64,000 nt of DNA from Ostreococcus lucimarinus (taxonomy: Eukaryota): the NCBI GenBank assembly GCA_000092065.1, contig CP000594.1; one strand, written 5' to 3'. Shown one piece after another: positions 38,623-52,940 of the stretch. Position 1 is the first letter of the stretch. Each line of letters begins with the position of its first letter. A model generated the notes under the pieces. The model ran no database searches. It was not told where the DNA came from and saw only the letters and a program-made list of their open reading frames with translations. A program made the position numbers and the translations under genes.

Positions 38623-39288
38623 TCAAATCATCGAAGGCGGCGTCGCGCCGAGAGACGCTAAACGTTTGAGCATGTCTCGCCCGAAACTCCCCGGCGAGTC
38701 GTCGCGCGCCAGAGGCACCGAAATTTCAAACGGGAAGCTCACGACGTCGCTCGTCGTCACCGGCGGCACGTGCGCCTTCATCTCGTTCACCAATCCCAGC
38801 ACGTGTCGCTGCGTCCCGACGACTTGGTCTCGCAGCGCCTCCCGCGCGCGCGCGCGCTCCGTCTCGTCCAACTCCTCACCCCTAAAAATCTCCAATCCGA
38901 TCCTCCACTGTTCCCAGTACCCATTCGCCGCGCGCGCTTCCTCCCGTCGCGTTCGTCCGCCGCTCAGCGCCTCTCGCAGCGCGCCGCCGCGTCTCGGCTT
39001 GTCCCGCTCGCGCTCGTAAAAGCTCACCGCCACGTCCGCCTCCCCGCCTCCCGTCTTCAGCGCCCATCGCACGAGGGCGTTTATCTTCTCCTCTATCTTC
39101 CCGTCCACCGCGCCGTCGCCGCACGCGACGTAGTGCACGTCCACGCGCTCGCATCGCGCGTCCCGAGGCGCGCAGCATCCGAGCGCGCGCGCGAAGACGA
39201 TCGTGTGCAGCAGCGCCGAGAGCACGTCGCGCACCTGCGACAGCTCGCATCGCAGCGGCGGCAGCGCGAACACCTCCCGCGCCCGCAT
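38623..39288 (-). CDS. ATG101: Autophagy-related protein 101 (ATG101)
   Basis: Collinear similarity to the ATG101 HORMA-like fold ([13 protein letters not shown] ~ [61 protein letters not shown] ~ [60 protein letters not shown] ~ PWEVWTVKVHV). The start is the ATG at 39288. Confidence 0.65.
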   Translation of the reverse strand: [221 protein letters not shown]

Positions 39289-41783: not shown

Positions 41784-43028
41784 TTACGCGGCCGCACGAA
41801 GAGCTTCGAGCTTGGCCTTGAGGTTGGCCTTCTTCTCTTCGTACGTGAGCTTCGGAAGCTTGAACAGACGCCCAGCGTCCGCCGGCTTCACGCGTTCCTT
41901 CTTCTCGTGGACGGGGTCTTCGCGAATGGCATCGAGGACGTCCTCCATGGCGTCTTCGAGCTCAGTCGGGTCGAAGTCCGCGGCCAAGTACTTGGCAAAC
42001 TGCTGTTCGAACTTTTCCGGTTCCTCCTCTTGCAGCTCTTCCGCGTACTCGGCGACAACACCACCCTTGATGTATCGCTCGAGAGTGTCCGGATCGTGGG
42101 ACTTGTCTTGGAGATCGTACCCAGCGAATCGCTTTTCGTTGTGCGGAATGTCCAACCCGCCGTCCACCGCACCCTTGAGCGCAGCGAACACTCGCGCGCC
42201 GGTCGACGTTCGCACCAAACCGGTGTCCAAGAAGCACTTGAACGGGCGCGCTTCCTCATCACCTTGTTCAACGTGGTAATCCTCCCCGAGGTCCTCCGTC
42301 TTACCCTCGTACGCATCCGCCAAGCCGTACTTCGTCAACAGTCGTCGCGCGCACAGCAACCCGGTCGCGTACGTCGCGGCGTAGTTCGTCAAACCCGCCT
42401 TCATCCCGTACTTCGGCAACTCGTGCGAGTACGCGGACGCGATGCACACGTCACCCGCGAGCGTGGCGTAGACAACTTGGCAAATCACATCGCGGTTCGT
42501 AAAGCGCACGACGAATCGGTACTTCGGCGAGTTGTACTTGTTCTTGTCCTGCGTGATCAAGCGCTGACGAGCGTAGTAATCCGTCTTGCCTGCGAGCGCG
42601 AAAACGTCCCGCGTCCAGCGCGAGCGCGTGATTTAAATCGTCAGTCCACACTCTGCGCGCTCGCACGCCCGCGCGCGCGTCGCGCGCGCGCTCGTTCGCG
42701 CCCGCGCGCGCGGTGCCGAAAAACCCTCGAGCGCGCCACCGCGCGGACATCGATGCGCCCCACGTCGCCGCGCCGCGCGCGCGCGCGATCGCACGCGTTC
42801 GAAACGAAGCATACGAATCATCCGCATCGAACGACGCGATCGACGCCGTCTCGACGGCGTCGACGCGTCGGTCGCGGCGCGATGATCGTCGCGCGATCGA
42901 GAAAGCCCTAAACGCGATGCCGAAGACGTACCAGCGCGGCGACGCGCGAACTTGACTTGGAAGCGCGAGAAGTACGCGTTGGTCTTCGCCACGGATTGGG
43001 ACTTGCGTTTGACTTTTCTGCGACCCAT
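41784..43028 (-). CDS. RPL5: 60S ribosomal protein L5 (uL18), two exons
   Basis: Exon 2 (42589..41784) encodes ...GKTDYYARQRLITQDKNKYNSPKYRFVVRFTNRDVICQ... to the C-terminus. Exon 1 (43028..42932) encodes MGRRKVKRKSQSVAKTNAYFSRFQVKFARRRA. The donor is G|GTACGT and the acceptor ...CTGAC...CGCAG|GC. Together they are 903 nt, giving 300 aa, and they restore the conserved FRRRREGKTDYYAR junction. Confidence 0.85.
42590..42931 (-). other. Intron of RPL5 (342 nt, GT-AG)
   Basis: GTACGT donor, CTGAC branch ~50 nt upstream of the CAG acceptor. It contains GTTTAGGGC (a telomere-repeat-like unit) about 20 nt downstream of the donor. Confidence 0.8.
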
Positions 43029-43504
43029 GGTTGCGTCGTGTGACACGCGAGGCGCGCGCGTCGAAAAGACGGAGCGCGACGGGCGGGGCGTGGCATCGTG
43101 CGCGCGAGGATGGTGTGGTCCGTGTTTGTAGTTTACGATTTTGTTCCAAAGGCGTACTGCTACAGGCGCTCGCGCACGACGACGGGCACCGTTCGCTCGC
43201 CCACGGGTTCGCCGCGAATGAAGAGCGGAATGTCGTACTCGCCGAAATCTACGATCGGGCGCTCGAGCATGAGCGCGCCAGGGGTAAGATTGAGGGATTT
43301 CTGACGTCGAATCTGGAGAGAGACGAAGGCGCGGCGGTGAGTCTTCGCGAGGGTAGAAATCAAACAAACGCCGGGTGTCGGCGGTGCTCGACGGTCGTCG
43401 TCGTCGGTGTCGTCGTCGCGTCAGAATAATGTCTCCTCACGGGTTATAGGCATGAATCCGTCCATTCAGACGGAGGCGCGATGCTATCAGGTGACAATTT
43501 CTCT

Positions 43505-43945: not shown

Positions 43946-44455
43946 CTACTCGATCATTTCTCCCATCGCGTCGCTACGTACCTTGCGTTTGTGTTCCTCC
44001 TCTTGCGCCGTCGCCGCGGCTTCGTCTCCGTCCTCCCCCCCCGCCTCGATTCGCGCCCTCTCCCGCGCCGCCAACCGCTCGCGCGCCGCCGCTAACTTCT
44101 CCGCATTCACATACGTCGCCAACTTCCCCGGCACGAGATGATTCCTCGCCCGTCCCGGCCGCACGTGCGCGACCTCGTCGACGTCGCCGAGCCCGCTCAC
44201 CGGCGCCCTCAGAATCACCTCCACCCTCCGGTTCGCCTTCTTCCACCACCGCCGCTCGACGCGCATCGACGCCGGCATCACCCCAGCCTCCCCCACGCGC
44301 GCGCTCGCGCTCGACGCGATCGACAGCGCGCGCGCGCGCCCCGGCACCGTCGAACCTCCCGTCGGCGCGCGCGCCTCCACCGCGCGCTCGCCGAGCGCCC
44401 GCGCGAGCGCGCGCGTCGCGCGTCGCGTCGCGTCGCGCGCGCGCGGTCCCCACAT
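43946..44455 (-). CDS. Organelle-targeted bacterial-type ribosomal protein L9 (bL9), N-terminal domain
   Basis: VEVILRAPVSGLGDVDEVAHVRPGRARNHLVPGKLATYVNAEKLAAARERLAARERARIEAG aligns with the bacterial L9 N-domain (MQVILL.KV..LG..GD.V.VK.GYARNFL.P.GKA..AT..N...FE.RR.E.E.K). It is preceded by a transit-peptide-like leader. The start may be 44455 or the ATG at 44278. Confidence 0.6.
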   Translation of the reverse strand: MWGPRARDATRRATRALARALGERAVEARAPTGGSTVPGRARALSIASSASARVGEAGVMPASMRVERRWWKKANRRVEVILRAPVSGLGDVDEVAHVRPGRARNHLVPGKLATYVNAEKLAAARERLAARERARIEAGGEDGDEAAATAQEEEHKRKVRSDAMGEMIE

Positions 44456-44714
44456 CGCGCGTCACGCGTTCGTCGCGCGCGCCGTCGCCGTCGCGCGCGC
44501 CGTCGTCGTCGCGCTCTGCCGCCGCGCGCGCCGATCGACCCACCGATCGATTCGTTTTCAATCGAACCTCGAGCGAGGTTCGCTCGCGCGCGCTCGATCG
44601 ACGATCGTCGATCGACTCCGGGGCGTCGAACGCGGCCTCGCGGGGGCAGAGCGCGACGACGCCGCGCGCGCGATCCGTCTCTTTGCGACGCGCGAAAGCC
44701 GACGCTCTTTCGAG

Positions 44715-45596
44715 ATGCCGACGAGGTGCGGGCGATGAAACGGCGAGCGATGCGATGCGTTCGATCGGGCGCGACGTCGCGGCGCGCGCGCGGTCGCGCG
44801 CGCGACGGGAGGGGCGAACGCGGCGTGGGACGCGATGGCGAGCCCTAGCGATCGGTGTGCGGCGTGGACGCGCCCGGGCGAGCGGCGCGAACGCGCGCGG
44901 GCGCTCGCGCGCGCGCGGTTGGGCGTGCGGGATTGCGATGCGTCGTTTCGAGGCGCGCGCGGGCGGGCGTGCGGGGGAGACGCGCGCGTTCGACGCGCGC
45001 GTTCGGCGCGTTCGGAGGCTTTAGGGTTTTTAGGAGGACTCGACGCGGGACGCGTCGCGGAGCGCGCGGCGCGGTGGTTCGCGCGATGGCGCGAGAGCGA
45101 TGGAAAAACTTCGGAGAATCGTCGACTGACCGAGGACGTGTGTTTGTTTGCGCGCGCGATTAGGTTGCATAAGAACCGCAAGAAGCGCGGGCACGTGTCC
45201 GCGGGTCACGGCCGTATCGGTAAGCACCGCAAGCACCCGGCGGGTCGCGGTATGGCGGGTGGTCAACACCATCACAGAATTATGATGGATAAGTATCACC
45301 CGGGTTACTTCGGTAAGGTTGGTATGCGTCACTTCCACAAGCTCAAGAACCACTACCACTGCCCGACCATCAACATTGACAAGCTTTGGACGCTCGTCGG
45401 CGAGGAGAAGCGTGAGGAGTGCGCCAAGAACACGTCTCAAGCGCCGGTGATTGATCTCACTGATCACGGTATCTTCAAGCTTCTCGGTAAGGGTCAACTC
45501 CCGAGCCAACCGGTCGTGGTGAAGTGCCGTTACATTAGCAAACTCGCCGAAAAGAAGATCAAGGATGTCGGCGGCGCGTGCATTCTCACCGCGTAA
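44715..45596 (+). CDS. RPL27A: 60S ribosomal protein L27a (uL15), with an 11-nt first micro-exon
   Basis: Exon 2 (45164..45596) encodes (R)[58 protein letters not shown]... to the stop codon. The missing Met-Pro-Thr-Arg N-terminus is supplied by ATGCCGACGAG|GTGCGG at 44715..44725. The intron (44726..45163) ends ...CTGACCGAGGACGTGTGTTTGTTTGCGCGCGCGATTAG|G. The spliced product is [14 protein letters not shown]..., 147 aa. Confidence 0.75.
45016..45034. promoter_or_regulatory. Telo-box-like element (AAACCCTAA on the minus strand; GGCTTTAGGGTTTTTAGG on the plus strand) inside RPL27a intron 1
   Basis: Sequence ctttagggtttttagg. The plant telo-box AAACCCTA is a known cis-element of ribosomal-protein and translation-apparatus genes. 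Coordinates are approximate. Confidence 0.5.
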
Positions 45597-45759
45597 AGGG
45601 CGTCTCTCGAATTCGGGTTCGTCTTCTGGGTAGTCTGGGATTAGTACCGCGCGTTGTTATGAGTAACATTCATCTCACGCGTTCATCAACCTAACCACAT
45701 CCATCGAGCACGACTCCGCCCGCCTCACTCGTCGCCGCGCCGCGGAATATTCACTTCAA

Positions 45760-46356
45760 ATGTACCACGTCCTCATCGCCGCTTTCGCCACCTGCGTCGC
45801 GTGCGAGCTCTTCGAGACCGAGAAAATCTACGCCACCGATGATTACGCGATCGCCAAGCGTCGCATCGAGCTCGCGCGCGAGCGCATCGCCGTCGCCGAG
45901 GCTCAAGTTCGCGAAAAAGGCGAACGGAAGAGCGCGCGTTTGGAGCAAGCGCAAGTCGCGCTCGTGCACGCCGAGCAAAAGATGAAACAGATGTGCATGG
46001 CCACGGGACGGACGTTCATGATCGTTACGTTCATCGGCGCCACGGCGGTCAGATGGTACTACTCGTACGCCGAACAAAAGACTGGGTTGCGACTGCCGTT
46101 CGCCGCGCCGATGCGCTGGGCGCTCGGAACTGGCGAAGACGAACGCGATTTAAATCCCACCGCGGCGTATTTCATCGTGACGTATCTCTGGCGCGTGGTG
46201 TTCGGGGATGTGCTGGGGCGTAAGACGAGACAGATCGAGGCGTATTGGAGCACAAAGGACACGGAACGTTACATGGCCGCGCATCGACAAACCTTCAACT
46301 CGTTGACTCGCGACTCTACGATGGCGGTGGCGCCAAAGGTGAAGAAAATGCGATGA
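45760..46356 (+). CDS. TMCO1: TMCO1-like protein (DUF106 / Oxa1-superfamily ER membrane protein)
   Basis: Collinear with TMCO1: an N-terminal TM, a coiled-coil KR-rich segment, then MCMATGRTFMIVTFIGA...LPFAAPMRWALGTGEDERDLNPTAAYFIVTYLWRVVFGDVLG, which matches LPFTPLSYIQGLSHRNLLGDDTTDCSFIFLYILCTMSIRQNIQKILG. Confidence 0.65.
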   Translation: MYHVLIAAFATCVACELFETEKIYATDDYAIAKRRIELARERIAVAEAQVREKGERKSARLEQAQVALVHAEQKMKQMCMATGRTFMIVTFIGATAVRWYYSYAEQKTGLRLPFAAPMRWALGTGEDERDLNPTAAYFIVTYLWRVVFGDVLGRKTRQIEAYWSTKDTERYMAAHRQTFNSLTRDSTMAVAPKVKKMR

Positions 46357-46446
46357 TCACGAACGCGTGTGATAGATTAGTAGATAGTTTTGTAGCCAGT
46401 TGAGCGCTTATTATTACATACGGCTTGGGAAAGGGGGAACAAATTA

Positions 46447-48384
46447 TCAATCCTTGTCGAAGGAGGAGCTCACGGAGATTTCGCGTGAATCGTACTGGTC
46501 CAAATCGTCCGTGGGGTCGGCTTGAAGCAAGCTCGCGAATTCGTCCATGTCGATTTTACCGTTACCATCGATATCAGCCTCACGGATACACGCCTTGACG
46601 ATGGCGGCGCGAACTGAATCGTTTGATTCGCTTGACTCTTCGAAAATCAATTGCGCCACTTCCTCGGCGTCAATTTGACCGCTATTGTCCTTGTCGAGAA
46701 TGTTGAACGCACGCTCGACCCACTTGGGGTACTCACTCGTCTGTTCAATCTTTTCCCAATCCAACAGCGCGGCGATGAATTCGTTGACATCAATCAAACC
46801 GTCGCCAGACGTGTCCAACGAACCTAAGAGCTGCTTGCTCTCTCGCCCTGTGACGTCGTATCCAATCTCCCTCAACCCCACCTCGAGCTCGCCGAGCTCG
46901 ACCATGTTATCACCTGAAGTGTCCAACTTCGCGAACAATGCTTTCAAGGTCTCGATGTCCGCATCTCGGGCTTGGGACAACGTCTTGATGTCGTCTTCGT
47001 CCTCGCTCAAGAGTTCTCGGGCGATGAGCCTGAGCACCGAACGCTTGAGCAAACCTTGAGTGGCGAAACGCTGCAGTCGAGCGACGACTTGACCGTCCAA
47101 CGCGGAATCCTGCCCCTTTGCTGCCTTTGCCTTCCAACTCGCCGACGTCTGCGTGAGCCAGGGGTGAAGGAGCGCAGCGCGAGCTATCGGTCGGGCTTCA
47201 GGATCGCGATCGAGTAGTTTGCGCACAAAATCCTTCGCCTCGTCGCTCACTTGGGACCAGGGATCGGACTCGAGGTCAACTTCGTCCTCAAGAATAGCCC
47301 TAAACACTTCCTTGGCGTTCGGTCGAGCGTTGACTTTATCGATGAAAGGCAGACGCCCGCTCAAAAGTTGATAGGCGACGACGCCGGCGGACCACACATC
47401 GGCTTGACTGCCGTAGTTGCGTTCAATCACCTCGGGTGCCATGTAGCTCGGCGTTCCACATCGGCGCGCGAGCACTTCTCCTTTGGGGGGCAATTTACCC
47501 GCCAAACCGAAATCCGTGGCTTTGAGAGGCGAGTCGTCATCTTCGGTTTGGAACAAAAAGTTATCCGGTTTGATGTCGCGATAGATAATCCCCCGACTGT
47601 GGCATTGCACCGCCGTCCGCAGCACGCTCTTCACCAATTGCGCCGCCTTTTGCTCGCGATAATCATTAGAATCGTTCATAGAGATGCGATCGAGCAACTC
47701 TCCGCCCGAGCACAACTCCATGAGAAGATGTACGCACTCGTCGTCTTCAAACGCGTCGTAAAGGTACACCACGCTCAACGAAGCTCCGATGGTTTGCATC
47801 ACCTCCACCTCGTTCCTCAGCTTGCCGTGATAATACTGCACCGCCGCTTTCGATGCCGGCGCAGTCTTCCACGGCGCCTTCTTCAGCGTCTTCAACGCGA
47901 ACGCCTCCCCGGTTTTCTTGCTCGTCGCCTTGCGCACGACGCCGTACGACCCCGCCCCCAGCGGCTCCTCATCCAAGCTCGGCACGTCGTACAGCTCGTG
48001 CAGATCCCTACGAAACCCAAAATCTGGTTTTAACTCTTCATTCGTGAAATCATCGAACGGACTATCGATCGTATCCGCCACCTTCGGCGCCGGTCGTCTT
48101 CGCTCGCTCGGCGTCGCGCTCTTCTTCTTCTTCCCGCCCGCGCTCGCCTTCCCCTTCGACCCTTTATCGTCATTCTTCGCCAACCAATCGCTCAGAAACC
48201 CTCGTCGCACGACCTCTACCCCTCGTCGCGCGTCCGCGTCGCGTCGCGCGAGCCGCGTCGCCGCCGTCGACCGACCGCGCGCTTTATCTTCCCTTTTCCA
48301 ACTTCCACCCCTCGCGATCGCGCGCGCGACCGCCGACGCCCGCGTCGTCGTCGCGCACCGCGTCGTCGTCATCTCGCACGACAT
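46447..48384 (-). CDS. CDPK: Calcium-dependent protein kinase (CDPK): Ser/Thr kinase domain plus four EF-hands
   Basis: Kinase subdomains (GAGSYGVVRKATSKKTGEAFALKTLKK, HSRGIIYRDIKPDNFLF, DFGLA, GTPSYMAPE). An autoinhibitory junction is followed by four EF-hand loops (DTSGDNMVELGEL, DTSGDGLIDVNEF, DKDNSGQIDAEE, DIDGNGKIDMDEF). The N-terminal start is uncertain. Confidence 0.85.
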   Translation of the reverse strand: MSCEMTTTRCATTTRASAVARAIARGGSWKREDKARGRSTAATRLARRDADARRGVEVVRRGFLSDWLAKNDDKGSKGKASAGGKKKKSATPSERRRPAPKVADTIDSPFDDFTNEELKPDFGFRRDLHELYDVPSLDEEPLGAGSYGVVRKATSKKTGEAFALKTLKKAPWKTAPASKAAVQYYHGKLRNEVEVMQTIGASLSVVYLYDAFEDDECVHLLMELCSGGELLDRISMNDSNDYREQKAAQLVKSVLRTAVQCHSRGIIYRDIKPDNFLFQTEDDDSPLKATDFGLAGKLPPKGEVLARRCGTPSYMAPEVIERNYGSQADVWSAGVVAYQLLSGRLPFIDKVNARPNAKEVFRAILEDEVDLESDPWSQVSDEAKDFVRKLLDRDPEARPIARAALLHPWLTQTSASWKAKAAKGQDSALDGQVVARLQRFATQGLLKRSVLRLIARELLSEDEDDIKTLSQARDADIETLKALFAKLDTSGDNMVELGELEVGLREIGYDVTGRESKQLLGSLDTSGDGLIDVNEFIAALLDWEKIEQTSEYPKWVERAFNILDKDNSGQIDAEEVAQLIFEESSESNDSVRAAIVKACIREADIDGNGKIDMDEFASLLQADPTDDLDQYDSREISVSSSFDKD

Positions 48385-48508
48385 TCGCGGCCGTCCGAGC
48401 TCGCGCTTCGCCCGCCGCGCGTCGCGCTTTCGCGTTTTCGTCGATTTCGCGCGTCGTCCCGATCGCGCGGTCGGTCGACGTCATCACATCGCGTCGTCGC
48501 GCGCCGCC

Positions 48509-49411
48509 ATGGGCGCGTCGCACAGCGCCGAAGCGGCGATCATCGACGGTAAGACGATCGCGTCGACGATTCGCGCGGAGATCAAGGGCGAAGTCGACGC
48601 GCTGCGCGCGAAGCACGGTAAAGTTCCGGGACTCGCGGTGGTCATCGTGGGCGATCGCAAGGACTCGCAGACGTACGTCCGCATGAAGCGCAAGGCGTGC
48701 GAAGAGGCGGGCATCGAGAGCTTTCACGCCGAACTCCCGGCGAGCGCGAGCGAGGCGGAGGTGCTGGCGACGGTGCGGAAGTTTAACGCGGACGCGCGCG
48801 TGCACGGGATACTGGTGCAGCTGCCGCTGCCGAAAGGGATGAACGAGGAGCGCGTCCTGGCGGAGATATCGCTCGAGAAAGACGTCGACGGGTTTCATCC
48901 GGAGAATATCGGGAAGCTGGCGATGAAGGGACACGAACCGCTGTTTGCGCCGTGCACGCCGAAGGGGTGCGTGGAGCTGCTGAAGCGAAACGGGACGGTG
49001 TTATCCGGAAAGAACGCCGTCGTCGTCGGACGATCAAACATCGTCGGCATGCCGGCGGCGATGCTTTTGATGAAGGAAGATTGTACCGTAACCGTGGTGC
49101 ACTCTAAGACGCGGGATCCGAAGAGAATCTGCCGCGAAGCCGACGTCATCGTCGCGGCGTGCGGGAGCGCGGAGATGGTGAAGAAGGATTGGGTGAAGAA
49201 GGGCGCCGTCATCATCGACGTCGGTACGAACAGCGTGGACGATAAGACCAAAAAGGCTGGCTATCGCTTGGTCGGCGACGTCGACTTTGCCGAGGTTAAG
49301 AAGGTGGCGAGCGCCATCACGCCCGTGCCGGGCGGCGTCGGTCCCATGACCATCGCGATGCTTCTCTCCAACTGCCTGGATTCTGGCAAGCGAGCCATCG
49401 CCAAGGCGTAA
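48509..49411 (+). CDS. FOLD: Bifunctional methylenetetrahydrofolate dehydrogenase/cyclohydrolase (FolD/MTHFD)
   Basis: 300 aa from the ATG at 48509 (IDGKTIASTIRAEIK...VIVGDRKDSQTYVRMKRKACEEAGI...HGILVQLPLP...GFHPENIGKL...PCTPKGCVELL...VVGRSNIVGMP...VPGGVGPMTIAMLL). The upstream part of the 497-aa ORF is antisense filler. Confidence 0.9.
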   Translation: MGASHSAEAAIIDGKTIASTIRAEIKGEVDALRAKHGKVPGLAVVIVGDRKDSQTYVRMKRKACEEAGIESFHAELPASASEAEVLATVRKFNADARVHGILVQLPLPKGMNEERVLAEISLEKDVDGFHPENIGKLAMKGHEPLFAPCTPKGCVELLKRNGTVLSGKNAVVVGRSNIVGMPAAMLLMKEDCTVTVVHSKTRDPKRICREADVIVAACGSAEMVKKDWVKKGAVIIDVGTNSVDDKTKKAGYRLVGDVDFAEVKKVASAITPVPGGVGPMTIAMLLSNCLDSGKRAIAKA

Positions 49412-49549
49412 TCTCATCTTTCGCTCGTCCATGGGTCCTCTATTTTTAATACGTATCGTCGTTGAATTCATTCTTCACTCTCGTTCGTCCCCGCGTCCCG
49501 AAGTTCAAACGCCGACCAGCTGTCGCCAGTCATCGCCGCGCCCTTCGCC

Positions 49550-51928
49550 ATGCGGGGCGCGCCCCCGCCCCTGTACCCGTGGCAGGCCGAAGCGATAAAC
49601 CTCGTCGCCGCGTCGCGTCGCTCGCTGTGCTACACGGCGCCCACGGGCGGCGGTAAAAGTCGCGTCGCCGATGAGTTGTTACGACTGTCCCTGACAAACT
49701 TTCCCGCGGCGAAAGCGCTCGTCGTGCTGCCGTACGTCGCGCTCGTGCGGGAAAAAGTGGCGTCGTTGGAGTCGTTGTTACGCCCGCTCGGGATCAAGGT
49801 GAGGGGCTACGCCGGGGTGGAGTGCGAGGGGGCGCCGTTGGGGAGCTCGAGAGAGCGCTGCGCGGTGACGACGATTGAAAAGGCGTCGTCGTGCGTCAAT
49901 AGACTGTTCGAAACGGGCGAGATATCGCTGCTCAGCGTCGTGGTGGTGGATGAGCTGCACATGGTCAGCGAAGACGAACGTGGGTGCGCGCTGGAGGGGA
50001 TGTTGGCGAAGATACGACACGGAGTGAAGTCGGGAAAGGTGTCGAGCGACGGCCCGCAAATCGTGTGCATGAGCGCGACGGTGGGAAAGTCATCGATGGA
50101 ACGCTTAGCGAGGTGGTTAGACGCGGAGATTTACGTCAGTCATCATCGGCCGGTGGAGTTGAAAGAGTACGTGGTGTGCGTGGGTGGGGTGTATGCGAAG
50201 GAGAATCGAGGTGAGGCGGGCTGGGAGCTGACGCGCGTGGCCGATTCGCCGTCGCGAGTGGAGTTGGAGATCGTCGCCGAACTGGTTGGTCAAGTGTTCG
50301 TCAACGCGCACAGCTCGTTGGTATTTTGCTCGAGCAAGAGTCAGTGTTCAGTTTATGCGACGAAATTGGCGAGCTTGCTTCCGGTGAATCCGAACACGGC
50401 GCACCTGCGAGAAGAGTGCGTGGCGAGACTCTACGAAGCTGCGGAGGGCGAGCCCGACCAAGCGCTAGTAGCGTGTGTTCGCTCCGGTCTCGCGTGGCAT
50501 CACGCCGGATTAACGACGGCAGAGAAGAGAGTAATCGAAGAGGGCTTTCGAGCTGGTGCGATTTTAGCGCTCACATGCACGACGACTCTTGCTGCGGGCG
50601 TCAACTTGCCCGCTCGCCGTTGCGTCATCCTTCGCGGCTTCATCGCCGGTTTACCGACGCCTTCGATGGCTCAGTACAAACAAATGGCTGGTCGAGCTGG
50701 AAGAAAAGGGCAAAGCGATTTCGGTGAATCTTTCCTAGTCACGACGAAACAAGAGGCCGTGGATTGGGCGCGAAATCTAGTACTCGGCGAGCTACCGGCT
50801 TTGGAGTCGCGTCTGTTTCCTCCTGCAATCAAGCGCCATGACATGCCCGTGACGCCAGAACAACGACGGTTTTATCTCGAATCCATCGCGTGTGGAGTAC
50901 TCAAGACAAAGGAAGACGCCGGTGAGCTGGCTTGTCGCACGTTTGCTTGGACATCTGGACGCGATAACGCGTCAATTCTCGCCCGTCAAAGCCGAGCGTT
51001 GAAGGAAATTTACGAAAAAGGGCTGGTTGTCGCGCGCTCCGGCGCGCATTGCGCTGAGTGGTGCTCTACTCCAGAGGGATTCGCGTTCTACAAGTGTACT
51101 TTACCGATAGCACACGCTAAGACGCTGCGGAAAGAGTTGTCTTTCGCGCTTACGAATGGATTGAATCTTTCGACGAAGACGCACTTGCTATTCTTTTGCG
51201 TGTCGAACGAAACCAACGTCTTCGCAGCAAACTTGAATTGGCACGCGTGGAGCGATTGGATGAGTCGATACGACAGTATTCATGAACTTGGGGAGAAACA
51301 TTTGAATGTCACCCGACAGTACGCAGAAAGAGCGCAGCATCGACAAGGGATATCAGACCAAGCCAAGGCGACTCGGTCGCGCCATGAGCGTCTCGCTGCG
51401 GCGTTGCTGTTGAGCGACGTGTTGGCGAGCGACGACACCACCGTCGACATTGCGCGCAAATGGTCAACGTTATCGAACAATCCCGTCAACCGTGGGATGA
51501 TTCAATCTCTTCAAAACAGCGCGGCGACGACGGCGGGCATGGCGAGCGTGCTGTGCGAACAGTGCGGCTGGCACGCGCTCGCAGGTCTTTTGCAAAACGT
51601 TAGCGAAGAGTTGCAAGCTGGCGCGCGACGAGAGCTATTACCGCTGATGCGTCTCGAAGGCATGACCGGCGCAAGAGCACGAGCTCTACATAACGCCGGA
51701 CTAACGACGCCTGCGAAAATCGCGGCACTTCAGAGCGATAAGTTTGACAAGCTGCAAGATGCTTGCCTGCGTTCGCTGACGCGATCGAGAAACGGCGGCT
51801 TGGATCAAGCCATGCGTACCACGGCGTGGAGAATCGCAAGCGCTCTCGTGCAATCGGCTCGTGAAGCGACAATCGAGGAGGCGAAACGGGCGTTGGAAGA
51901 CGATTCTAACGCTGAATGGTTAAATTAA
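49550..51928 (+). CDS. HELQ: Hel308/HELQ-like superfamily-2 DNA helicase
   Basis: Walker A (APTGGGKS), DEAH-like motif II (VVDELH), SAT, motif VI (QMAGRAGRKG). Ski2/Hel308-type C-terminal winged-helix/ratchet region. Confidence 0.7.
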   Translation: MRGAPPPLYPWQAEAINLVAASRRSLCYTAPTGGGKSRVADELLRLSLTNFPAAKALVVLPYVALVREKVASLESLLRPLGIKVRGYAGVECEGAPLGSSRERCAVTTIEKASSCVNRLFETGEISLLSVVVVDELHMVSEDERGCALEGMLAKIRHGVKSGKVSSDGPQIVCMSATVGKSSMERLARWLDAEIYVSHHRPVELKEYVVCVGGVYAKENRGEAGWELTRVADSPSRVELEIVAELVGQVFVNAHSSLVFCSSKSQCSVYATKLASLLPVNPNTAHLREECVARLYEAAEGEPDQALVACVRSGLAWHHAGLTTAEKRVIEEGFRAGAILALTCTTTLAAGVNLPARRCVILRGFIAGLPTPSMAQYKQMAGRAGRKGQSDFGESFLVTTKQEAVDWARNLVLGELPALESRLFPPAIKRHDMPVTPEQRRFYLESIACGVLKTKEDAGELACRTFAWTSGRDNASILARQSRALKEIYEKGLVVARSGAHCAEWCSTPEGFAFYKCTLPIAHAKTLRKELSFALTNGLNLSTKTHLLFFCVSNETNVFAANLNWHAWSDWMSRYDSIHELGEKHLNVTRQYAERAQHRQGISDQAKATRSRHERLAAALLLSDVLASDDTTVDIARKWSTLSNNPVNRGMIQSLQNSAATTAGMASVLCEQCGWHALAGLLQNVSEELQAGARRELLPLMRLEGMTGARARALHNAGLTTPAKIAALQSDKFDKLQDACLRSLTRSRNGGLDQAMRTTAWRIASALVQSAREATIEEAKRALEDDSNAEWLN

Positions 51929-51986
51929 AACCAGGCTAGTAGGCATAGGTAGAATTAGACGTAGAGAATAATAGGCAGCGGCGCGA

Positions 51987-52940
51987 TTACTGAAACGGCA
52001 AAGAGATGCCGAGCCCCTCGTTACCCGGAGCACGGTACTTCTTCTTGTTCGGAGTCGTCAATCTAAAGCTCTTGATCGTCTCGTCGAACCCACGGGCGAG
52101 CTCGTCCCAGTAAATCTCGGGGGCGCTCGAACTCAGCGTGTACAAGTACCCATCCCGCTCAACCGTCACGCCGTAACTGTGTCGAAACGTCGTCGCCTCC
52201 GGCTCGCGCAAATTCGGTGAGCCTTGCGATATGTACTCGTAGTAATAATACGGCACATCATCGATGACGTTGATGATCGCGTTATCCACCTCGGCCAGAC
52301 TCACGCGCTGTCCGCTCGCCACCCGTCCCGTGGCTTTATCCGCCAGAACCGCGTTCGCCACCTGCTTCGCCGTCCACTCCTTCACGGCTTTCGATTCAAG
52401 CGCTGGGGGCGTGTTGCTCACCGTCACCACCGTCGTCAACGGTCCTTTAAAACTCAACAACTCGTACACGATGCGTTGCCGAGCGTTCGGCGACATCGGC
52501 TCCGCGCTCGAGTACGTATCCCGCTCTCGGCTCACCGCCCAACTGATCGGCTTCCCGCTCTCCGCTTCCACCGCGTACGTGAACTCATACGCCAAACTCT
52601 CGCTCACCACGCGCTTCTTCTCGAGTTCGCGAACCTTCGACGCCGTCGGCGGCGCCGCCGCTTCGATCGCCGCCGCGCCGTCGATCGCCGCGTCGTCCTC
52701 CTCCGCGCGCGCGCCCGGCGCCGAAACGACGCTCGCGACGCTCGCGAGCGAGAGCACGTGCACGAACGCCCGGCGCGAGGGCGCGTTCGCGCGCGCGGTG
52801 TCGTCGCGCGCGTCGTCCCCGACGACGGCTCGACAGGATAGGCCGACGCTCTGGCGCCGCGCGACGGCGCGCGCGGGACGCCTGCGAGCGTCCAAGGACG
52901 CGAAAACGCGCGCGAGCGATGCGCGAGACATCGCAAGCAT
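51987..52940 (-). CDS. PsbP-domain protein (PPD-like thylakoid lumen protein) with a Tat-type targeting sequence
   Basis: RR motif followed by a hydrophobic stretch (SRRAFVHVLSLASVASV) then a PsbP-like α/β domain (YEFTYAVE...WAVSRERD...VTVS...YYYEYIS...YLYTLSSSAPE). Confidence 0.5.
   Translation of the reverse strand: MLAMSRASLARVFASLDARRRPARAVARRQSVGLSCRAVVGDDARDDTARANAPSRRAFVHVLSLASVASVVSAPGARAEEDDAAIDGAAAIEAAAPPTASKVRELEKKRVVSESLAYEFTYAVEAESGKPISWAVSRERDTYSSAEPMSPNARQRIVYELLSFKGPLTTVVTVSNTPPALESKAVKEWTAKQVANAVLADKATGRVASGQRVSLAEVDNAIINVIDDVPYYYYEYISQGSPNLREPEATTFRHSYGVTVERDGYLYTLSSSAPEIYWDELARGFDETIKSFRLTTPNKKKYRAPGNEGLGISLPFQ

What the first reader, a model, noticed from the sequence alone, without database searches (positions are those of the whole stretch)
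44715..45596. RPL27a starts with an 11-nt micro-exon (ATGCCGACGAG) 438 nt upstream of the main ORF
The main ORF begins exactly at the conserved [11 protein letters not shown] block but lacks the universal Met-Pro-Thr/Ser-Arg N-terminus. The sequence ATGCCGACGAG|GTGCGG at 44715 supplies M-P-T-R with a canonical GTGCG donor. The acceptor TTAG|G is preceded by CTGAC and a T-rich tract, and restores the frame to 147 aa. Micro-exons like this are routinely missed by gene callers, and the long GC-rich ORF 44835..45596 would be mis-annotated as an N-terminally extended L27a.
Basis: seen in the sequence. Interest (0 to 1): 0.55.

Follow-up and report, generated by a model that had tools for sequence, protein, structure and literature searches.

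The report
RPL27a gene with start-proximal intron

Summary
Observation and interpretation are both confirmed. ATGCCGACGAG (44715-44725) is followed by a GT..AG intron (44726-45163, 438 nt) and by exon 2 (45164-45596). Splicing gives a 147-aa uL15/L27a that aligns end to end with solved 80S uL15 chains.

The window is Ostreococcus lucimarinus CCE9901-like. The spliced protein is identical to GenBank ABO99525.1/ABO99560.1 (RPL27aA/aB, XP_001421232/XP_001421267). A published EST cluster covers 99.3% of the RPL27aB model and is listed among intron-containing clusters (PMC2367439). One environmental contig lacks exactly these 438 bases.

The donor GTGCGGG and branch site GACTGACC fit the published species consensus (GTGCGTG, GACTGACG). 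The in-frame 253-aa ORF is spurious: its GC is flat across codon positions, substitutions are spread evenly over codon positions, and a 1-nt indel between the window and the environmental contigs alters its start and length. Prokaryote-style callers do annotate it on about 100 metagenome contigs.

"Micro-exon" overstates the case, because exon 1 also carries the 5'UTR.

Side observations:
- The split lies at 11 nt only in the O. lucimarinus type. It is 12 nt in other Ostreococcus and Micromonas, and 14 nt in Bathycoccus.
- The intron carries an invariant plant telo-box (TTTAGGGTTT).

Verdict: real, ordinary, already known.

The parts
44674..44684 (+). TCCGTCTCTTT, an oligopyrimidine (TOP-like) motif 31-41 nt upstream of the ATG. 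It is the putative transcription start region of exon 1 (inferred).
   Evidence: TCCGYCTYTTY occurs twice in the window. Both copies are in sense orientation, one upstream of the RPL27a ATG and one upstream of the RPL5 ATG (43063-43073, minus strand). Similar CCGCCT(C)TT motifs lie just upstream of the ATG in other Ostreococcus lineages.
44715..44725 (+). Coding part of exon 1: ATG CCG ACG AG (Met-Pro-Thr plus the first two bases of Arg4).
   Evidence: It is identical in all O. lucimarinus-type metagenome contigs, including the lineage that is 94% identical (0/11 changes).
44726..45163 (+). Spliceosomal GT-AG intron: 438 nt, phase 2, 73% G+C.
   Evidence: It is precisely absent from contig L001/L008. 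It diverges 8.2% from the 94%-identical lineage, against 1.2% for exon 2. It has no Rfam match and no unusual fold (z = -0.44).
44726..44732 (+). 5' splice site GTGCGGG.
   Evidence: It matches 6 of 7 positions of the published O. lucimarinus non-chromosome-2 consensus GTGCGTG (PMC2483917).
44835..45163 (+). Spurious in-frame ORF extension (110 codons) inside the intron. It is not coding.
   Evidence: GC at codon positions 1/2/3 is 0.73/0.70/0.72, against 0.58/0.38/0.72 in exon 2. Substitutions against L016 fall 10/11/8 by codon position, against 0/0/5 in exon 2. A 1-nt indel at 44827 between the window and the environmental contigs changes the ORF from 253 to 286 aa. The extension is absent in other Ostreococcus clades.
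45020..45029 (+). TTTAGGGTTT, a plant-type telomere-repeat motif (telo-box, AAACCCTAAA on the other strand) inside the intron. It is a candidate intron-borne regulatory element (inferred).
   Evidence: It is the only TTAGGGTTT in the window (expected 0.06). TAGGGTTT is invariant in 7 Ostreococcus-type lineages whose introns are otherwise poorly alignable.
45124..45131 (+). Branch site GACTGACC. The branch A is at 45129, 34 nt before the last intron base.
   Evidence: It matches 7 of 8 positions of the published consensus GACTGACG. ACTGAC is present in 87% of EST-confirmed non-chromosome-2 introns (PMC2483917). CTRAC sits at a similar distance in the orthologous introns.
45139..45149 (+). T-rich tract TGTGTTTGTTT between the branch site and the acceptor.
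45160..45163 (+). 3' splice site TTAG|G.
45164..45596 (+). Exon 2 coding sequence (third base of Arg4 through Ala147, plus TAA). It encodes the body of uL15/L27a.
   Evidence: tblastn gives 100% identity over residues 4-147. Pfam PF00828 scores 58.2 bits against a cut-off of 21.5. The protein aligns end to end with solved uL15 chains.

Best explanation
This is the cytosolic large-subunit ribosomal protein gene RPL27a (uL15) of Ostreococcus lucimarinus. By the published model names it probably lies on chromosome 14.

Proposed mechanism:
- Transcription probably starts at an oligopyrimidine motif about 35 nt upstream of the ATG. The motif sits in a 260-bp divergent promoter region shared with a mitochondrial-type L9 gene (inferred).
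- Exon 1 carries the 5'UTR and only 11 coding bases, ATGCCGACGAG.
- A 438-nt GC-rich U2-type intron is then removed. Its signals are the 5'ss GTGCGGG, the branch site GACTGACC, a T-rich tract and the 3'ss TTAG.
- Splicing joins AG to G, making Arg4, and continues into [10 protein letters not shown]...
- The product is a 147-aa protein.

The in-frame 253-aa ORF that runs back into the intron is a by-product of stop-poor GC-rich sequence.

Shown here: the sequence, the identity of the spliced product to the annotated proteins, the existence of a molecule with exactly this junction, the non-coding evolution of the intron, and the orthologous structures.

Inferred: the transcription start site, and a regulatory role for the conserved telo-box in the intron.
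For: - Coordinates and frame were checked directly.
- The spliced product is identical to ABO99525.1/ABO99560.1/XP_001421232/XP_001421267, 'Ribosomal protein L27aA/L27aB'. The neighbouring 198-aa ORF is identical to XP_001421233 of O. lucimarinus CCE9901.
- JGI contig Ga0182090_1363178 matches window 44593-44727 and then 45162-52713 at 99.85-100% identity, with nothing in between.
- Lanier et al. 2008 Table S1 lists RPL27aB (eugene.1400010117) = EST cluster CL1925Contig1 at 100% identity and 99.3% coverage. Table S2 lists that cluster among the intron clusters.
- The splice signals match the species consensus GTGCGTG / GACTGACG of Irimia & Roy 2008.
- Against a lineage that is 94% identical, exon 1 shows 0/11 changes and exon 2 shows 5/433, all at third codon positions. 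The intron shows 36/437 changes plus an indel.
- Orthologues have a first coding segment of 12 nt (other Ostreococcus; M. commoda, with transcript contig L011) or 14 nt (Bathycoccus, with spliced contig L035).
- The protein aligns over residues 1-147 with solved plant and animal uL15 chains at E = 1e-68, and Pfam PF00828 is matched.
Against: - I could not read the GenBank CDS coordinates. That the reference model uses this same exon is inferred from the identical protein and from the uniqueness of ATGCCNACNAGGT in the window.
- I could not verify whether the intron-less contig comes from RNA or DNA. Other contigs from the same sample series keep their RPL27a introns (L039, L045).
- That contig's first 305 nt match nothing else, and the ORF across them is a singleton. 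The contig is therefore partly chimeric or unusual.
- The donor has G instead of T at +6, and the branch motif ends in C instead of G.
- The transcription start is not mapped.
Confidence: 0.97

Rival explanations
1. There is no splicing. The gene is the continuous 253-aa ORF 44835-45596, encoding an N-terminally extended L27a.
For: The ORF is open and in frame. JGI/IMG annotates it as L27Ae, and it was seen on 99 metagenome contigs.
Against: - The extension has flat GC across codon positions, and substitutions are spread evenly over them.
- A 1-nt indel at 44827 between the window and the environmental contigs alters its start and length.
- Other Ostreococcus clades have stop codons a few codons upstream of exon 2 (P0128, P0129).
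- Eukaryotic uL15 proteins are 144-149 aa and start with M-P/T-T/S-R.
- No Pfam domain falls in the extension.
- The reference annotation and the EST cluster support the 147-aa product.
Confidence: 0.01
2. The intron-less contig L008 is not cDNA. It is a genomic intron-less allele or paralogue, which would mean an intron presence/absence polymorphism, or an intron-less second copy, in natural O. lucimarinus populations.
For: - The contig is 7988 nt long, spans six genes on both strands, and is colinear with the genome for 7.5 kb.
- Other contigs of the same sample series retain RPL27a introns.
- The upstream sequence departs from the window at 44593.
- CCE9901 is annotated with two identical L27a copies, and only one of them is in the window.
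Against: - The 147-aa ORF was found on this one contig only, whereas the intron-containing ORF is indexed in 103 blocks of the collection and was seen on 99 contigs.
- The 126-aa ORF across the odd 5' end is a singleton among 15 billion proteins.
- The break at 44593 lies in a palindromic CGATCGACGATCGTCGATCG stretch, which is a typical site for a mis-join.
- The contig's 198-aa neighbour is identical to the window's copy, not to the annotated paralogue's neighbour.
- From memory only, and not verified: the Ga01820xx series are metatranscriptomes.
Confidence: 0.08
3. A different upstream exon or start codon supplies the N-terminus.
For: None was found. A systematic enumeration of ATG / GT / AG combinations within 1.6 kb upstream allowed for this possibility.
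Against: In the window that enumeration returned a single solution: ATG 44715, 11 nt, GTGCGG, 438 nt. No alternative gives an M-P/T-T/S start in frame. Contig L008 joins exon 2 to this exon.
Confidence: 0.01

Closest known systems
Annotated O. lucimarinus CCE9901 genes RPL27aA / RPL27aB (ABO99525.1, ABO99560.1; XP_001421232, XP_001421267; JGI model eugene.1400010117)
   Same: The 147-aa product is identical. An EST cluster confirms the model and its intron.
   Different: Nothing detectable. I could not tell which of the two annotated copies is the one in the window.
[quoted passage not shown] 2002 as quoted in Nielsen & Wernersson 2006, PMC1626468)
   Same: The first intron lies within a few codons of the ATG in a short, lysine-rich, highly conserved ribosomal protein. 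That paper reports ribosomal proteins as over-represented among genes with such introns in vertebrates, arthropods, fungi and plants.
   Different: The classic 'start codon intron' is phase 0, directly after the ATG. Here the intron is phase 2 in codon 4. Some green-algal metagenome contigs do show the ATG-only form (L088, L093).
Orthologous RPL27a genes of other Mamiellales (Ostreococcus clades, Micromonas commoda CP001325.1, Bathycoccus prasinos OZ117029.1)
   Same: - All have a tiny first coding segment, a 250-490-nt intron, and a CTRAC branch site 30-53 nt from the 3'ss in most lineages (none was found within 80 nt in L027).
- The synteny RPL5 - mitochondrial-type L9 - RPL27a - ... - CDPK is conserved.
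   Different: - The split position differs: 11 nt (phase 2) here and in the 94%-identical lineage L016; 12 nt (phase 0) in the other Ostreococcus lineages and M. commoda; 14 nt (phase 2) in Bathycoccus.
- M. commoda has a second intron.
Plant telo-box (AAACCCTAA) cis-element of translation-apparatus genes (Gaspin et al. 2010, PMC3022908)
   Same: The motif is the same. It is associated with ribosomal protein genes and lies in the 5' part of the gene. That paper reports enrichment in 5'UTRs and in the first two introns in Arabidopsis.
   Different: - Here it sits about 140 nt before the 3' end of intron 1, with TTTAGGG on the sense strand.
- No binding or expression data exist.
- I found no paper in the searchable library describing it in Ostreococcus.

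Membership tests
Eukaryotic uL15 (L27a / yeast L28), Pfam PF00828 Ribosomal_L27A | Pfam domain scores above the gathering threshold. | tested here: met
   58.2 bits against a cut-off of 21.5, over residues 72-143.
Eukaryotic uL15 (L27a / yeast L28), Pfam PF00828 Ribosomal_L27A | Full-length colinearity with uL15 chains from solved 80S ribosomes, including the N-terminus. | tested here: met
   Residues 1-147 align with residues 1-148 of 7qiw_c, 9vtg_LI, 8azw_f, 5lzs_a and others, at E = 1e-68 to 1e-65.
Eukaryotic uL15 (L27a / yeast L28), Pfam PF00828 Ribosomal_L27A | Conserved N-terminal M-(P/T/A)-(T/S)-x-x-x-K-x-RKxRGHVSxGHGR block. | tested here: met
   The spliced product starts [21 protein letters not shown]. 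Homologues start MPTH, MPTR, MTTR or MATR.
O. lucimarinus 'non-chromosome-2' class of U2-type introns (Irimia & Roy 2008) | GT...AG termini and the 5'ss consensus GTGCGTG. | tested here: met
   The donor is GTGCGGG (6/7) and the intron ends in AG.
O. lucimarinus 'non-chromosome-2' class of U2-type introns (Irimia & Roy 2008) | ACTGAC / GACTGACG branch motif near the 3' end. | tested here: met
   GACTGACC lies at 45124-45131, with the branch A 34 nt from the 3' end. The other 12 GACTGAC sites in the window all read GACTGACG.
O. lucimarinus 'non-chromosome-2' class of U2-type introns (Irimia & Roy 2008) | The intron is actually removed from transcripts. | tested here: met
   Contig L001/L008 carries the exact junction. 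The published EST cluster CL1925Contig1 covers 99.3% of the model and is listed among the intron clusters. The RNA origin of L008 itself is not verified.
Micro-exon in the strict sense (a very short whole exon, usually internal) | The whole exon, not just its coding part, is only a few to about 30 nt and is flanked by introns on both sides. | tested here: inconclusive
   This is the first exon and includes the 5'UTR. The TOP-like motif at 44674-44684 would give an exon of about 45-50 nt. L008 is colinear from 44593, which would give 133 nt or more. No TSS data are available. No upstream intron is indicated.
Start-codon-proximal intron of ribosomal protein genes | The first CDS intron lies within the first few codons of a ribosomal protein gene. 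| tested here: met
   The intron lies after base 11 of the CDS. Orthologues have it after base 3, 10, 12 or 14.
Telo-box cis-element | Sequence identity to the plant telomere repeat unit (AAACCCTAA / TTAGGGTTT) in the 5' part of a translation-related gene. | tested here: met
   45020-45029 reads TTTAGGGTTT. It is invariant in 7 lineages.
Telo-box cis-element | Binds a factor and modulates expression. | not testable with these tools
   This needs reporter or ChIP experiments.

The most novel reading that the evidence does not exclude
The intron may be more than a spacer.

- Across at least six Ostreococcus-type lineages whose introns are otherwise barely alignable, the only invariant internal block apart from the splice signals is a sense-strand telo-box, TAGGGTTT. 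Related algae carry the same motif in the RPL27a promoter or in intron 2.
- The intron could therefore be kept, in one of the most compact eukaryotic genomes, because it houses an enhancer for ribosomal protein gene expression.
- The O. lucimarinus lineage also shifted the exon/intron boundary by one base (12 nt phase 0 to 11 nt phase 2) through paired changes at both splice sites. This is a clean recent case of one-base intron sliding.
Probability: 0.35. Interest if true: 0.3.

Novelty: already known. Interest (0 to 1): 0.1.

Why it matters
For genome annotation, this is a worked example of a known pitfall. ORF-based callers applied to picoeukaryote DNA in metagenomes give this gene a false 106-139-residue N-terminal extension, or clip it at Leu5, and these wrong versions are the commonest forms in the metagenome-derived protein clusters read here. 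The gene itself and its splicing are already correctly annotated and EST-supported, so nothing new follows for ribosome biology.

The side observations could interest people who study why intron-poor, compact genomes keep introns in highly expressed genes. These are the conserved telo-box in the intron, the TOP-like motif shared with RPL5, and the one-base shift of the intron between sister lineages. All three are untested.

Tried and rejected
- snoRNA or other structured RNA in the intron: Rfam at E <= 1 over 44300-45800 found nothing. The intron's fold is no better than shuffles (z = -0.44).
- Second L27a copy in the window: none. A look-up of the annotated paralogue's 198-aa neighbour (P0175) found no record, so the second CCE9901 copy could not be inspected.
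- Origin of sample 3300016797 / Ga0182090 (RNA or DNA): two literature searches found nothing.
- Source of the unmatched 305 nt at the 5' end of L008: there was no match in the window or in any fetched locus. The ORF across it is a singleton.
- L012, a contig with a different, shorter intron 5' part joined to the window-type 3' part: its 12-nt exon 1 is out of frame with the phase-2 acceptor. I treat it as a chimeric assembly, not as evidence about the gene.
- The bacterial promoter/terminator scan is not applicable to a eukaryotic gene and was not used.
- TTTAGGG sites at 38880, 47298 and 63815: no ribosomal protein genes are evident from the ORF lists, and I did not pursue them.
- The telo-box is not conserved in the RPL5 intron of the clade represented by L013. 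I therefore do not claim it as a general feature of Ostreococcus ribosomal protein gene introns.

Full report
**1. What is in the sequence**

The window reads ...CTCTTTCGAG ATGCCGACGAG|GTGCGGGCGATG... at 44715-44725/44726. It reads ...CGACTGACCGAGGACGTGTGTTTGTTTGCGCGCGCGATTAG|GTTGCATAAGAACCGCAAGAAGCGC... at 45163/45164. Joining 44715-44725 to 45164-45596 gives a 444-nt CDS that encodes 147 aa, [21 protein letters not shown]...CILTA*. The intron is 438 nt and 73% G+C, against 56% for exon 2 and 63% for the window. The 253-aa ORF 44835..45596 exists as described. ATGCCNACNAGGT occurs once in the window on both strands, and tblastn finds a single L27a locus.

**2. Where the window comes from and what is already annotated**

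An exact-sequence look-up shows that the spliced 147-aa protein is identical to GenBank ABO99525.1 / ABO99560.1 (XP_001421232 / XP_001421267), named 'Ribosomal protein L27aA/L27aB, component of cytosolic 80S ribosome'. The next ORF downstream (198 aa) is identical to XP_001421233 of Ostreococcus lucimarinus CCE9901. The reference annotation therefore already encodes this N-terminus.

Lanier et al. 2008 (PMC2367439) list RPL27aB (JGI model eugene.1400010117, i.e. chromosome 14) in Table S1. It is matched by EST cluster CL1925Contig1 at 100% identity and 99.3% coverage. Table S2 lists that cluster, 'ribosomal protein l27a', among the intron-containing clusters.

**3. Direct evidence for the junction**

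The only contig in the collection on which the 147-aa ORF was called as one uninterrupted gene is JGI Ga0182090_1363178 (L001/L008, 7988 nt). It matches window 44593-44727 at 100% and then continues at 45162-52713 at 99.85%. The overlap of the two matches is the AGGT shared by donor and acceptor. Only the split 44725^45164 gives GT...AG. An assembler cannot create such a deletion from a 4-nt microhomology, so molecules with this junction were present in that sample.

There are caveats. I could not verify that the sample is RNA. My recollection that the Ga01820xx series are metatranscriptomes is from memory only. Other contigs of that series keep their RPL27a introns (L039, L045). The first 305 nt of L008 match nothing I hold, and the ORF across them is a singleton among 15 billion proteins. 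The break sits in a palindromic CGATCGACGATCGTCGATCG stretch. By contrast, the seven metagenome contigs fetched through the 253-aa ORF all retain the intron and are otherwise colinear with the window at 99.8-99.9%. That ORF was seen on 99 contigs.

**4. Splice signals**

Irimia & Roy 2008 (PMC2483917) report that EST-confirmed O. lucimarinus introns outside chromosome 2 have the atypical 5'ss consensus GTGCGTG. They also report that 87% of these introns contain ACTGAC and 66.5% contain GACTGACG. This intron has GTGCGGG, and GACTGACC at 45124-45131, followed by a T-rich tract and TTAG.

In the window 13 GACTGAC sites occur, and the other 12 all read GACTGACG. Several are followed by an AG 26-47 nt later, for example the RPL5 intron. 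That intron runs 42590-42931 on the minus strand, is 342 nt and phase 1, and has donor GTACGT and branch site GACTGACG.

**5. The ORF extension is not coding**

- GC at codon positions 1/2/3 is 0.73/0.70/0.72 in 44835-45164. It is 0.58/0.38/0.72 in exon 2, and 0.57/0.45/0.76 and 0.60/0.43/0.70 in the neighbouring genes.
- Against L016, a lineage that is 94% identical, divergence is 0/11 in exon 1 and 5/433 in exon 2, with all five changes at third positions. It is 36/437 plus one indel in the intron, 16.8% in the 5' intergenic DNA and 11.7% in the 3' flank.
- Within the ORF extension the substitutions fall 10/11/8 on codon positions 1/2/3.
- A 1-nt indel at 44827 separates the window from every metagenome contig aligned here (L002, L016, L017). 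It turns the spurious ORF from 253 aa into 286 aa.
- In other Ostreococcus clades the ORF stops a few codons upstream of exon 2 (MFSRSQLHKNRKK..., or a start called at Leu5).

**6. Orthologues**

For all fetched loci I enumerated every ATG/GT/AG combination within 1.6 kb upstream that restores an M-P/T-T/S... start. Nearly all lineages gave one solution that restores the conserved N-terminus. The few additional hits (for example in L013, L019-L021 and L064) do not give the conserved MPT/MTT start.

- O. lucimarinus type (window, L016-L018): 11 nt, phase 2, AG|GTGCG[GC]G ... TTAG|GTTG.
- Other Ostreococcus-type lineages (L013/14, L019-L029; 89-97% protein identity): 12 nt, phase 0. An example is AGA|GTGCGTG ... 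CGCAG|TTGCAC.
- Micromonas commoda CP001325.1 (L010): 12 nt, CAC|GTGAGT, plus a second intron. The spliced junction is seen in contig L011.
- Bathycoccus prasinos OZ117029.1 (L009) and about 25 similar contigs: 14 nt, TT|GTGAGT ... CAG|ACAC. A spliced contig is L035.
- Other green-lineage contigs: 10 nt (MTTR...) or ATG only.
- Many non-green contigs: no intron.

The synteny RPL5 - mitochondrial-type L9 - RPL27a - ... - CDPK is shared by Ostreococcus, Micromonas and Bathycoccus.

The architecture is thus conserved across the order. The exact split differs by 1-3 nt, and the 11-nt state is specific to the O. lucimarinus type. Relative to its closest relatives, that lineage lacks the A of AGA at the donor and has an extra G after the acceptor. 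This is a one-base intron slide with compensation at both ends.

Contig L012 joins a 12-nt exon 1 to the window-type phase-2 acceptor. That is out of frame, so I regard L012 as a chimeric assembly.

**7. Identity of the protein**

Pfam PF00828 scores 58.2 bits against a cut-off of 21.5. Residues 1-147 align with residues 1-148 of uL15 chains in solved tomato, tobacco, rabbit and human 80S ribosomes at E = 1e-68 to 1e-65. The best named homologue outside the species is Bathycoccus prasinos (84% identity, MPTHLHKNRKK...).

**8. How it compares with what is known**

Ribosomal protein genes are the classic carriers of introns next to the start codon. Nielsen & Wernersson 2006 (PMC1626468) quote Yoshihama et al. 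[quoted passage not shown] They also show that ribosomal proteins are over-represented among start-codon-intron genes in four eukaryotic groups. Lanier et al. [quoted passage not shown] The feature is therefore expected.

'Micro-exon' is a loose term here. The 11 nt are only the coding part of the first exon, which also holds the 5'UTR.

**9. Things seen on the way**

(a) TTTAGGGTTT at 45020-45029 is the only TTAGGGTTT in the window (expected 0.06). In an alignment of seven Ostreococcus-type introns, TAGGGTTT is the only invariant internal run of 8 columns. The other conserved islands are exon 1 with the donor, the branch site and the acceptor. Each lineage has the motif in sense orientation about 70-175 nt before the 3'ss, and all but L024/L026 have no TTAGGG elsewhere in about 3 kb of flank.
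- The O. lucimarinus RPL5 intron has TTTAGGG in sense orientation.
- M. commoda has ACCCTAAAA 89 nt upstream of the ATG and TTTAGGGTT in intron 2.
- A Bathycoccus-like contig has AAACCCTAAA 82 nt upstream of the ATG.
- This is the plant telo-box of translation-apparatus genes (PMC3022908). I found no report of it in Ostreococcus.

(b) TCCGYCTYTTY occurs twice in the window. Both copies lie 31-45 nt upstream of the ATG of the two cytosolic ribosomal protein genes, in sense orientation (7 of 100 shuffles reach two matches). It may be a TOP-like initiator.

(c) Non-coding DNA here is more GC-rich than coding DNA, which generates long spurious ORFs on both strands.

**10. Verdict**

The finding is real and correctly interpreted. 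It is also already annotated and EST-supported, and it is typical for its gene class. Interest is low. The residual novelty lies in the conserved intronic telo-box and the one-base intron shift, both of which are side observations that need experiments.

Noticed in passing
window 45020-45029 (also L013 2884-2895, L016, L019-L027 introns; L010 3010 and 2412; L030 996): A plant-type telo-box, TTTAGGGTTT, lies inside the RPL27a intron. It is the only TTAGGGTTT in the 64-kb window. TAGGGTTT is the only invariant internal block, apart from the splice signals, across seven Ostreococcus-type introns. Micromonas and a Bathycoccus-like contig carry the motif in the RPL27a promoter or in intron 2 instead.
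   Followed up: yes
window 44674-44684 (+) and 43063-43073 (-): TCCGYCTYTTY occurs exactly twice in the window. Both copies are in sense orientation, 31-45 nt upstream of the ATG of the two cytosolic ribosomal protein genes (RPL27a and RPL5). It may be a TOP-like initiator. The statistics are weak: 7 of 100 shuffles give two or more matches.
   Followed up: partly
window 44715-44725 compared with L013/L019-L029 (12 nt), L010 (12 nt), L009/L030-L056 (14 nt), L058/L064/L066 (10 nt), L088/L093 (3 nt): The length of the first coding segment of RPL27a differs by 1-3 nt between closely related picoalgae. The O. lucimarinus type is the only one with 11 nt (phase 2). Its nearest relatives have AGA|GT...AG|TTG where it has AG|GT...AG|GTTG, which is a compensated one-base intron slide.
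   Followed up: yes
L008 1-305 (JGI Ga0182090_1363178): The intron-less environmental contig departs from the window upstream of 44593, at a palindromic CGATCGACGATCGTCGATCG stretch. Its first 305 nt match nothing fetched, and the 126-aa ORF across them is a singleton in the 15-billion-protein collection. It is either a chimeric 5' end or a rare rearranged or intron-less allele.
   Followed up: partly
L012 2781-3150 (JGI Ga0494229_03080): This contig is a mosaic. To the right of window position 45122 it is 98.7% identical to the window. To the left it is only 70-83% identical. Its 12-nt exon 1 (AGA|GTACGT) is out of frame with the window-type acceptor TTAG|GTTG, so it is probably a chimeric assembly of two co-occurring Ostreococcus lineages.
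   Followed up: partly
window 42590-42931 (-), RPL5: RPL5 also has a 5'-proximal intron: 342 nt, phase 1, after 97 coding nt. Its donor is GTACGT and its branch site is GACTGACG at 42639-42646. It has a sense TTTAGGG at 42906-42912, 19 nt after the donor. That telo-like motif is not conserved in the clade represented by L013.
   Followed up: partly
window 44827: A one-base indel in a G-run separates the window from every metagenome contig aligned here (L002, L016, L017). It changes the spurious intron-spanning ORF from 286 aa to 253 aa. It may be a strain difference or a reference sequencing error.
   Followed up: partly
whole window; e.g. 44000-45000 (76% GC) against 45164-45596 (56% GC): Intergenic and intronic DNA is markedly more GC-rich (CGCG-rich) than coding DNA. 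This produces many long stop-free ORFs on both strands, such as 44138-44848 (+) and 44558-45181 (-), which prokaryotic callers annotate as genes.
   Followed up: no
outside the window (GenBank ABO99560.1/ABO99561.1): CCE9901 is annotated with two identical L27a genes, aA and aB, 35 accession numbers apart. Each is followed by a 198-aa gene. The second copy's 198-aa neighbour differs by 2 residues and was not on record in the gene-position index searched, whereas the window's version was seen on 634 contigs. This may be a strain-specific segmental duplication or an assembly artefact.
   Followed up: partly
window 28, 10083, 14685, 18596, 23043, 30386, 34804, 42646, 43568, 43733, 50141, 57555: Twelve of the 13 GACTGAC sites in the window read GACTGACG, the published extended branch-site consensus. 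Several are followed by an AG 26-47 nt downstream and probably mark further introns. The RPL27a site is the only one that ends in C.
   Followed up: partly
window 48260-48337 compared with L007 3427-3455: One metagenome contig lacks about 77 nt near the 5' end of the CDPK gene and encodes 643 aa instead of 645 aa. This is an indel or repeat-length polymorphism.
   Followed up: no
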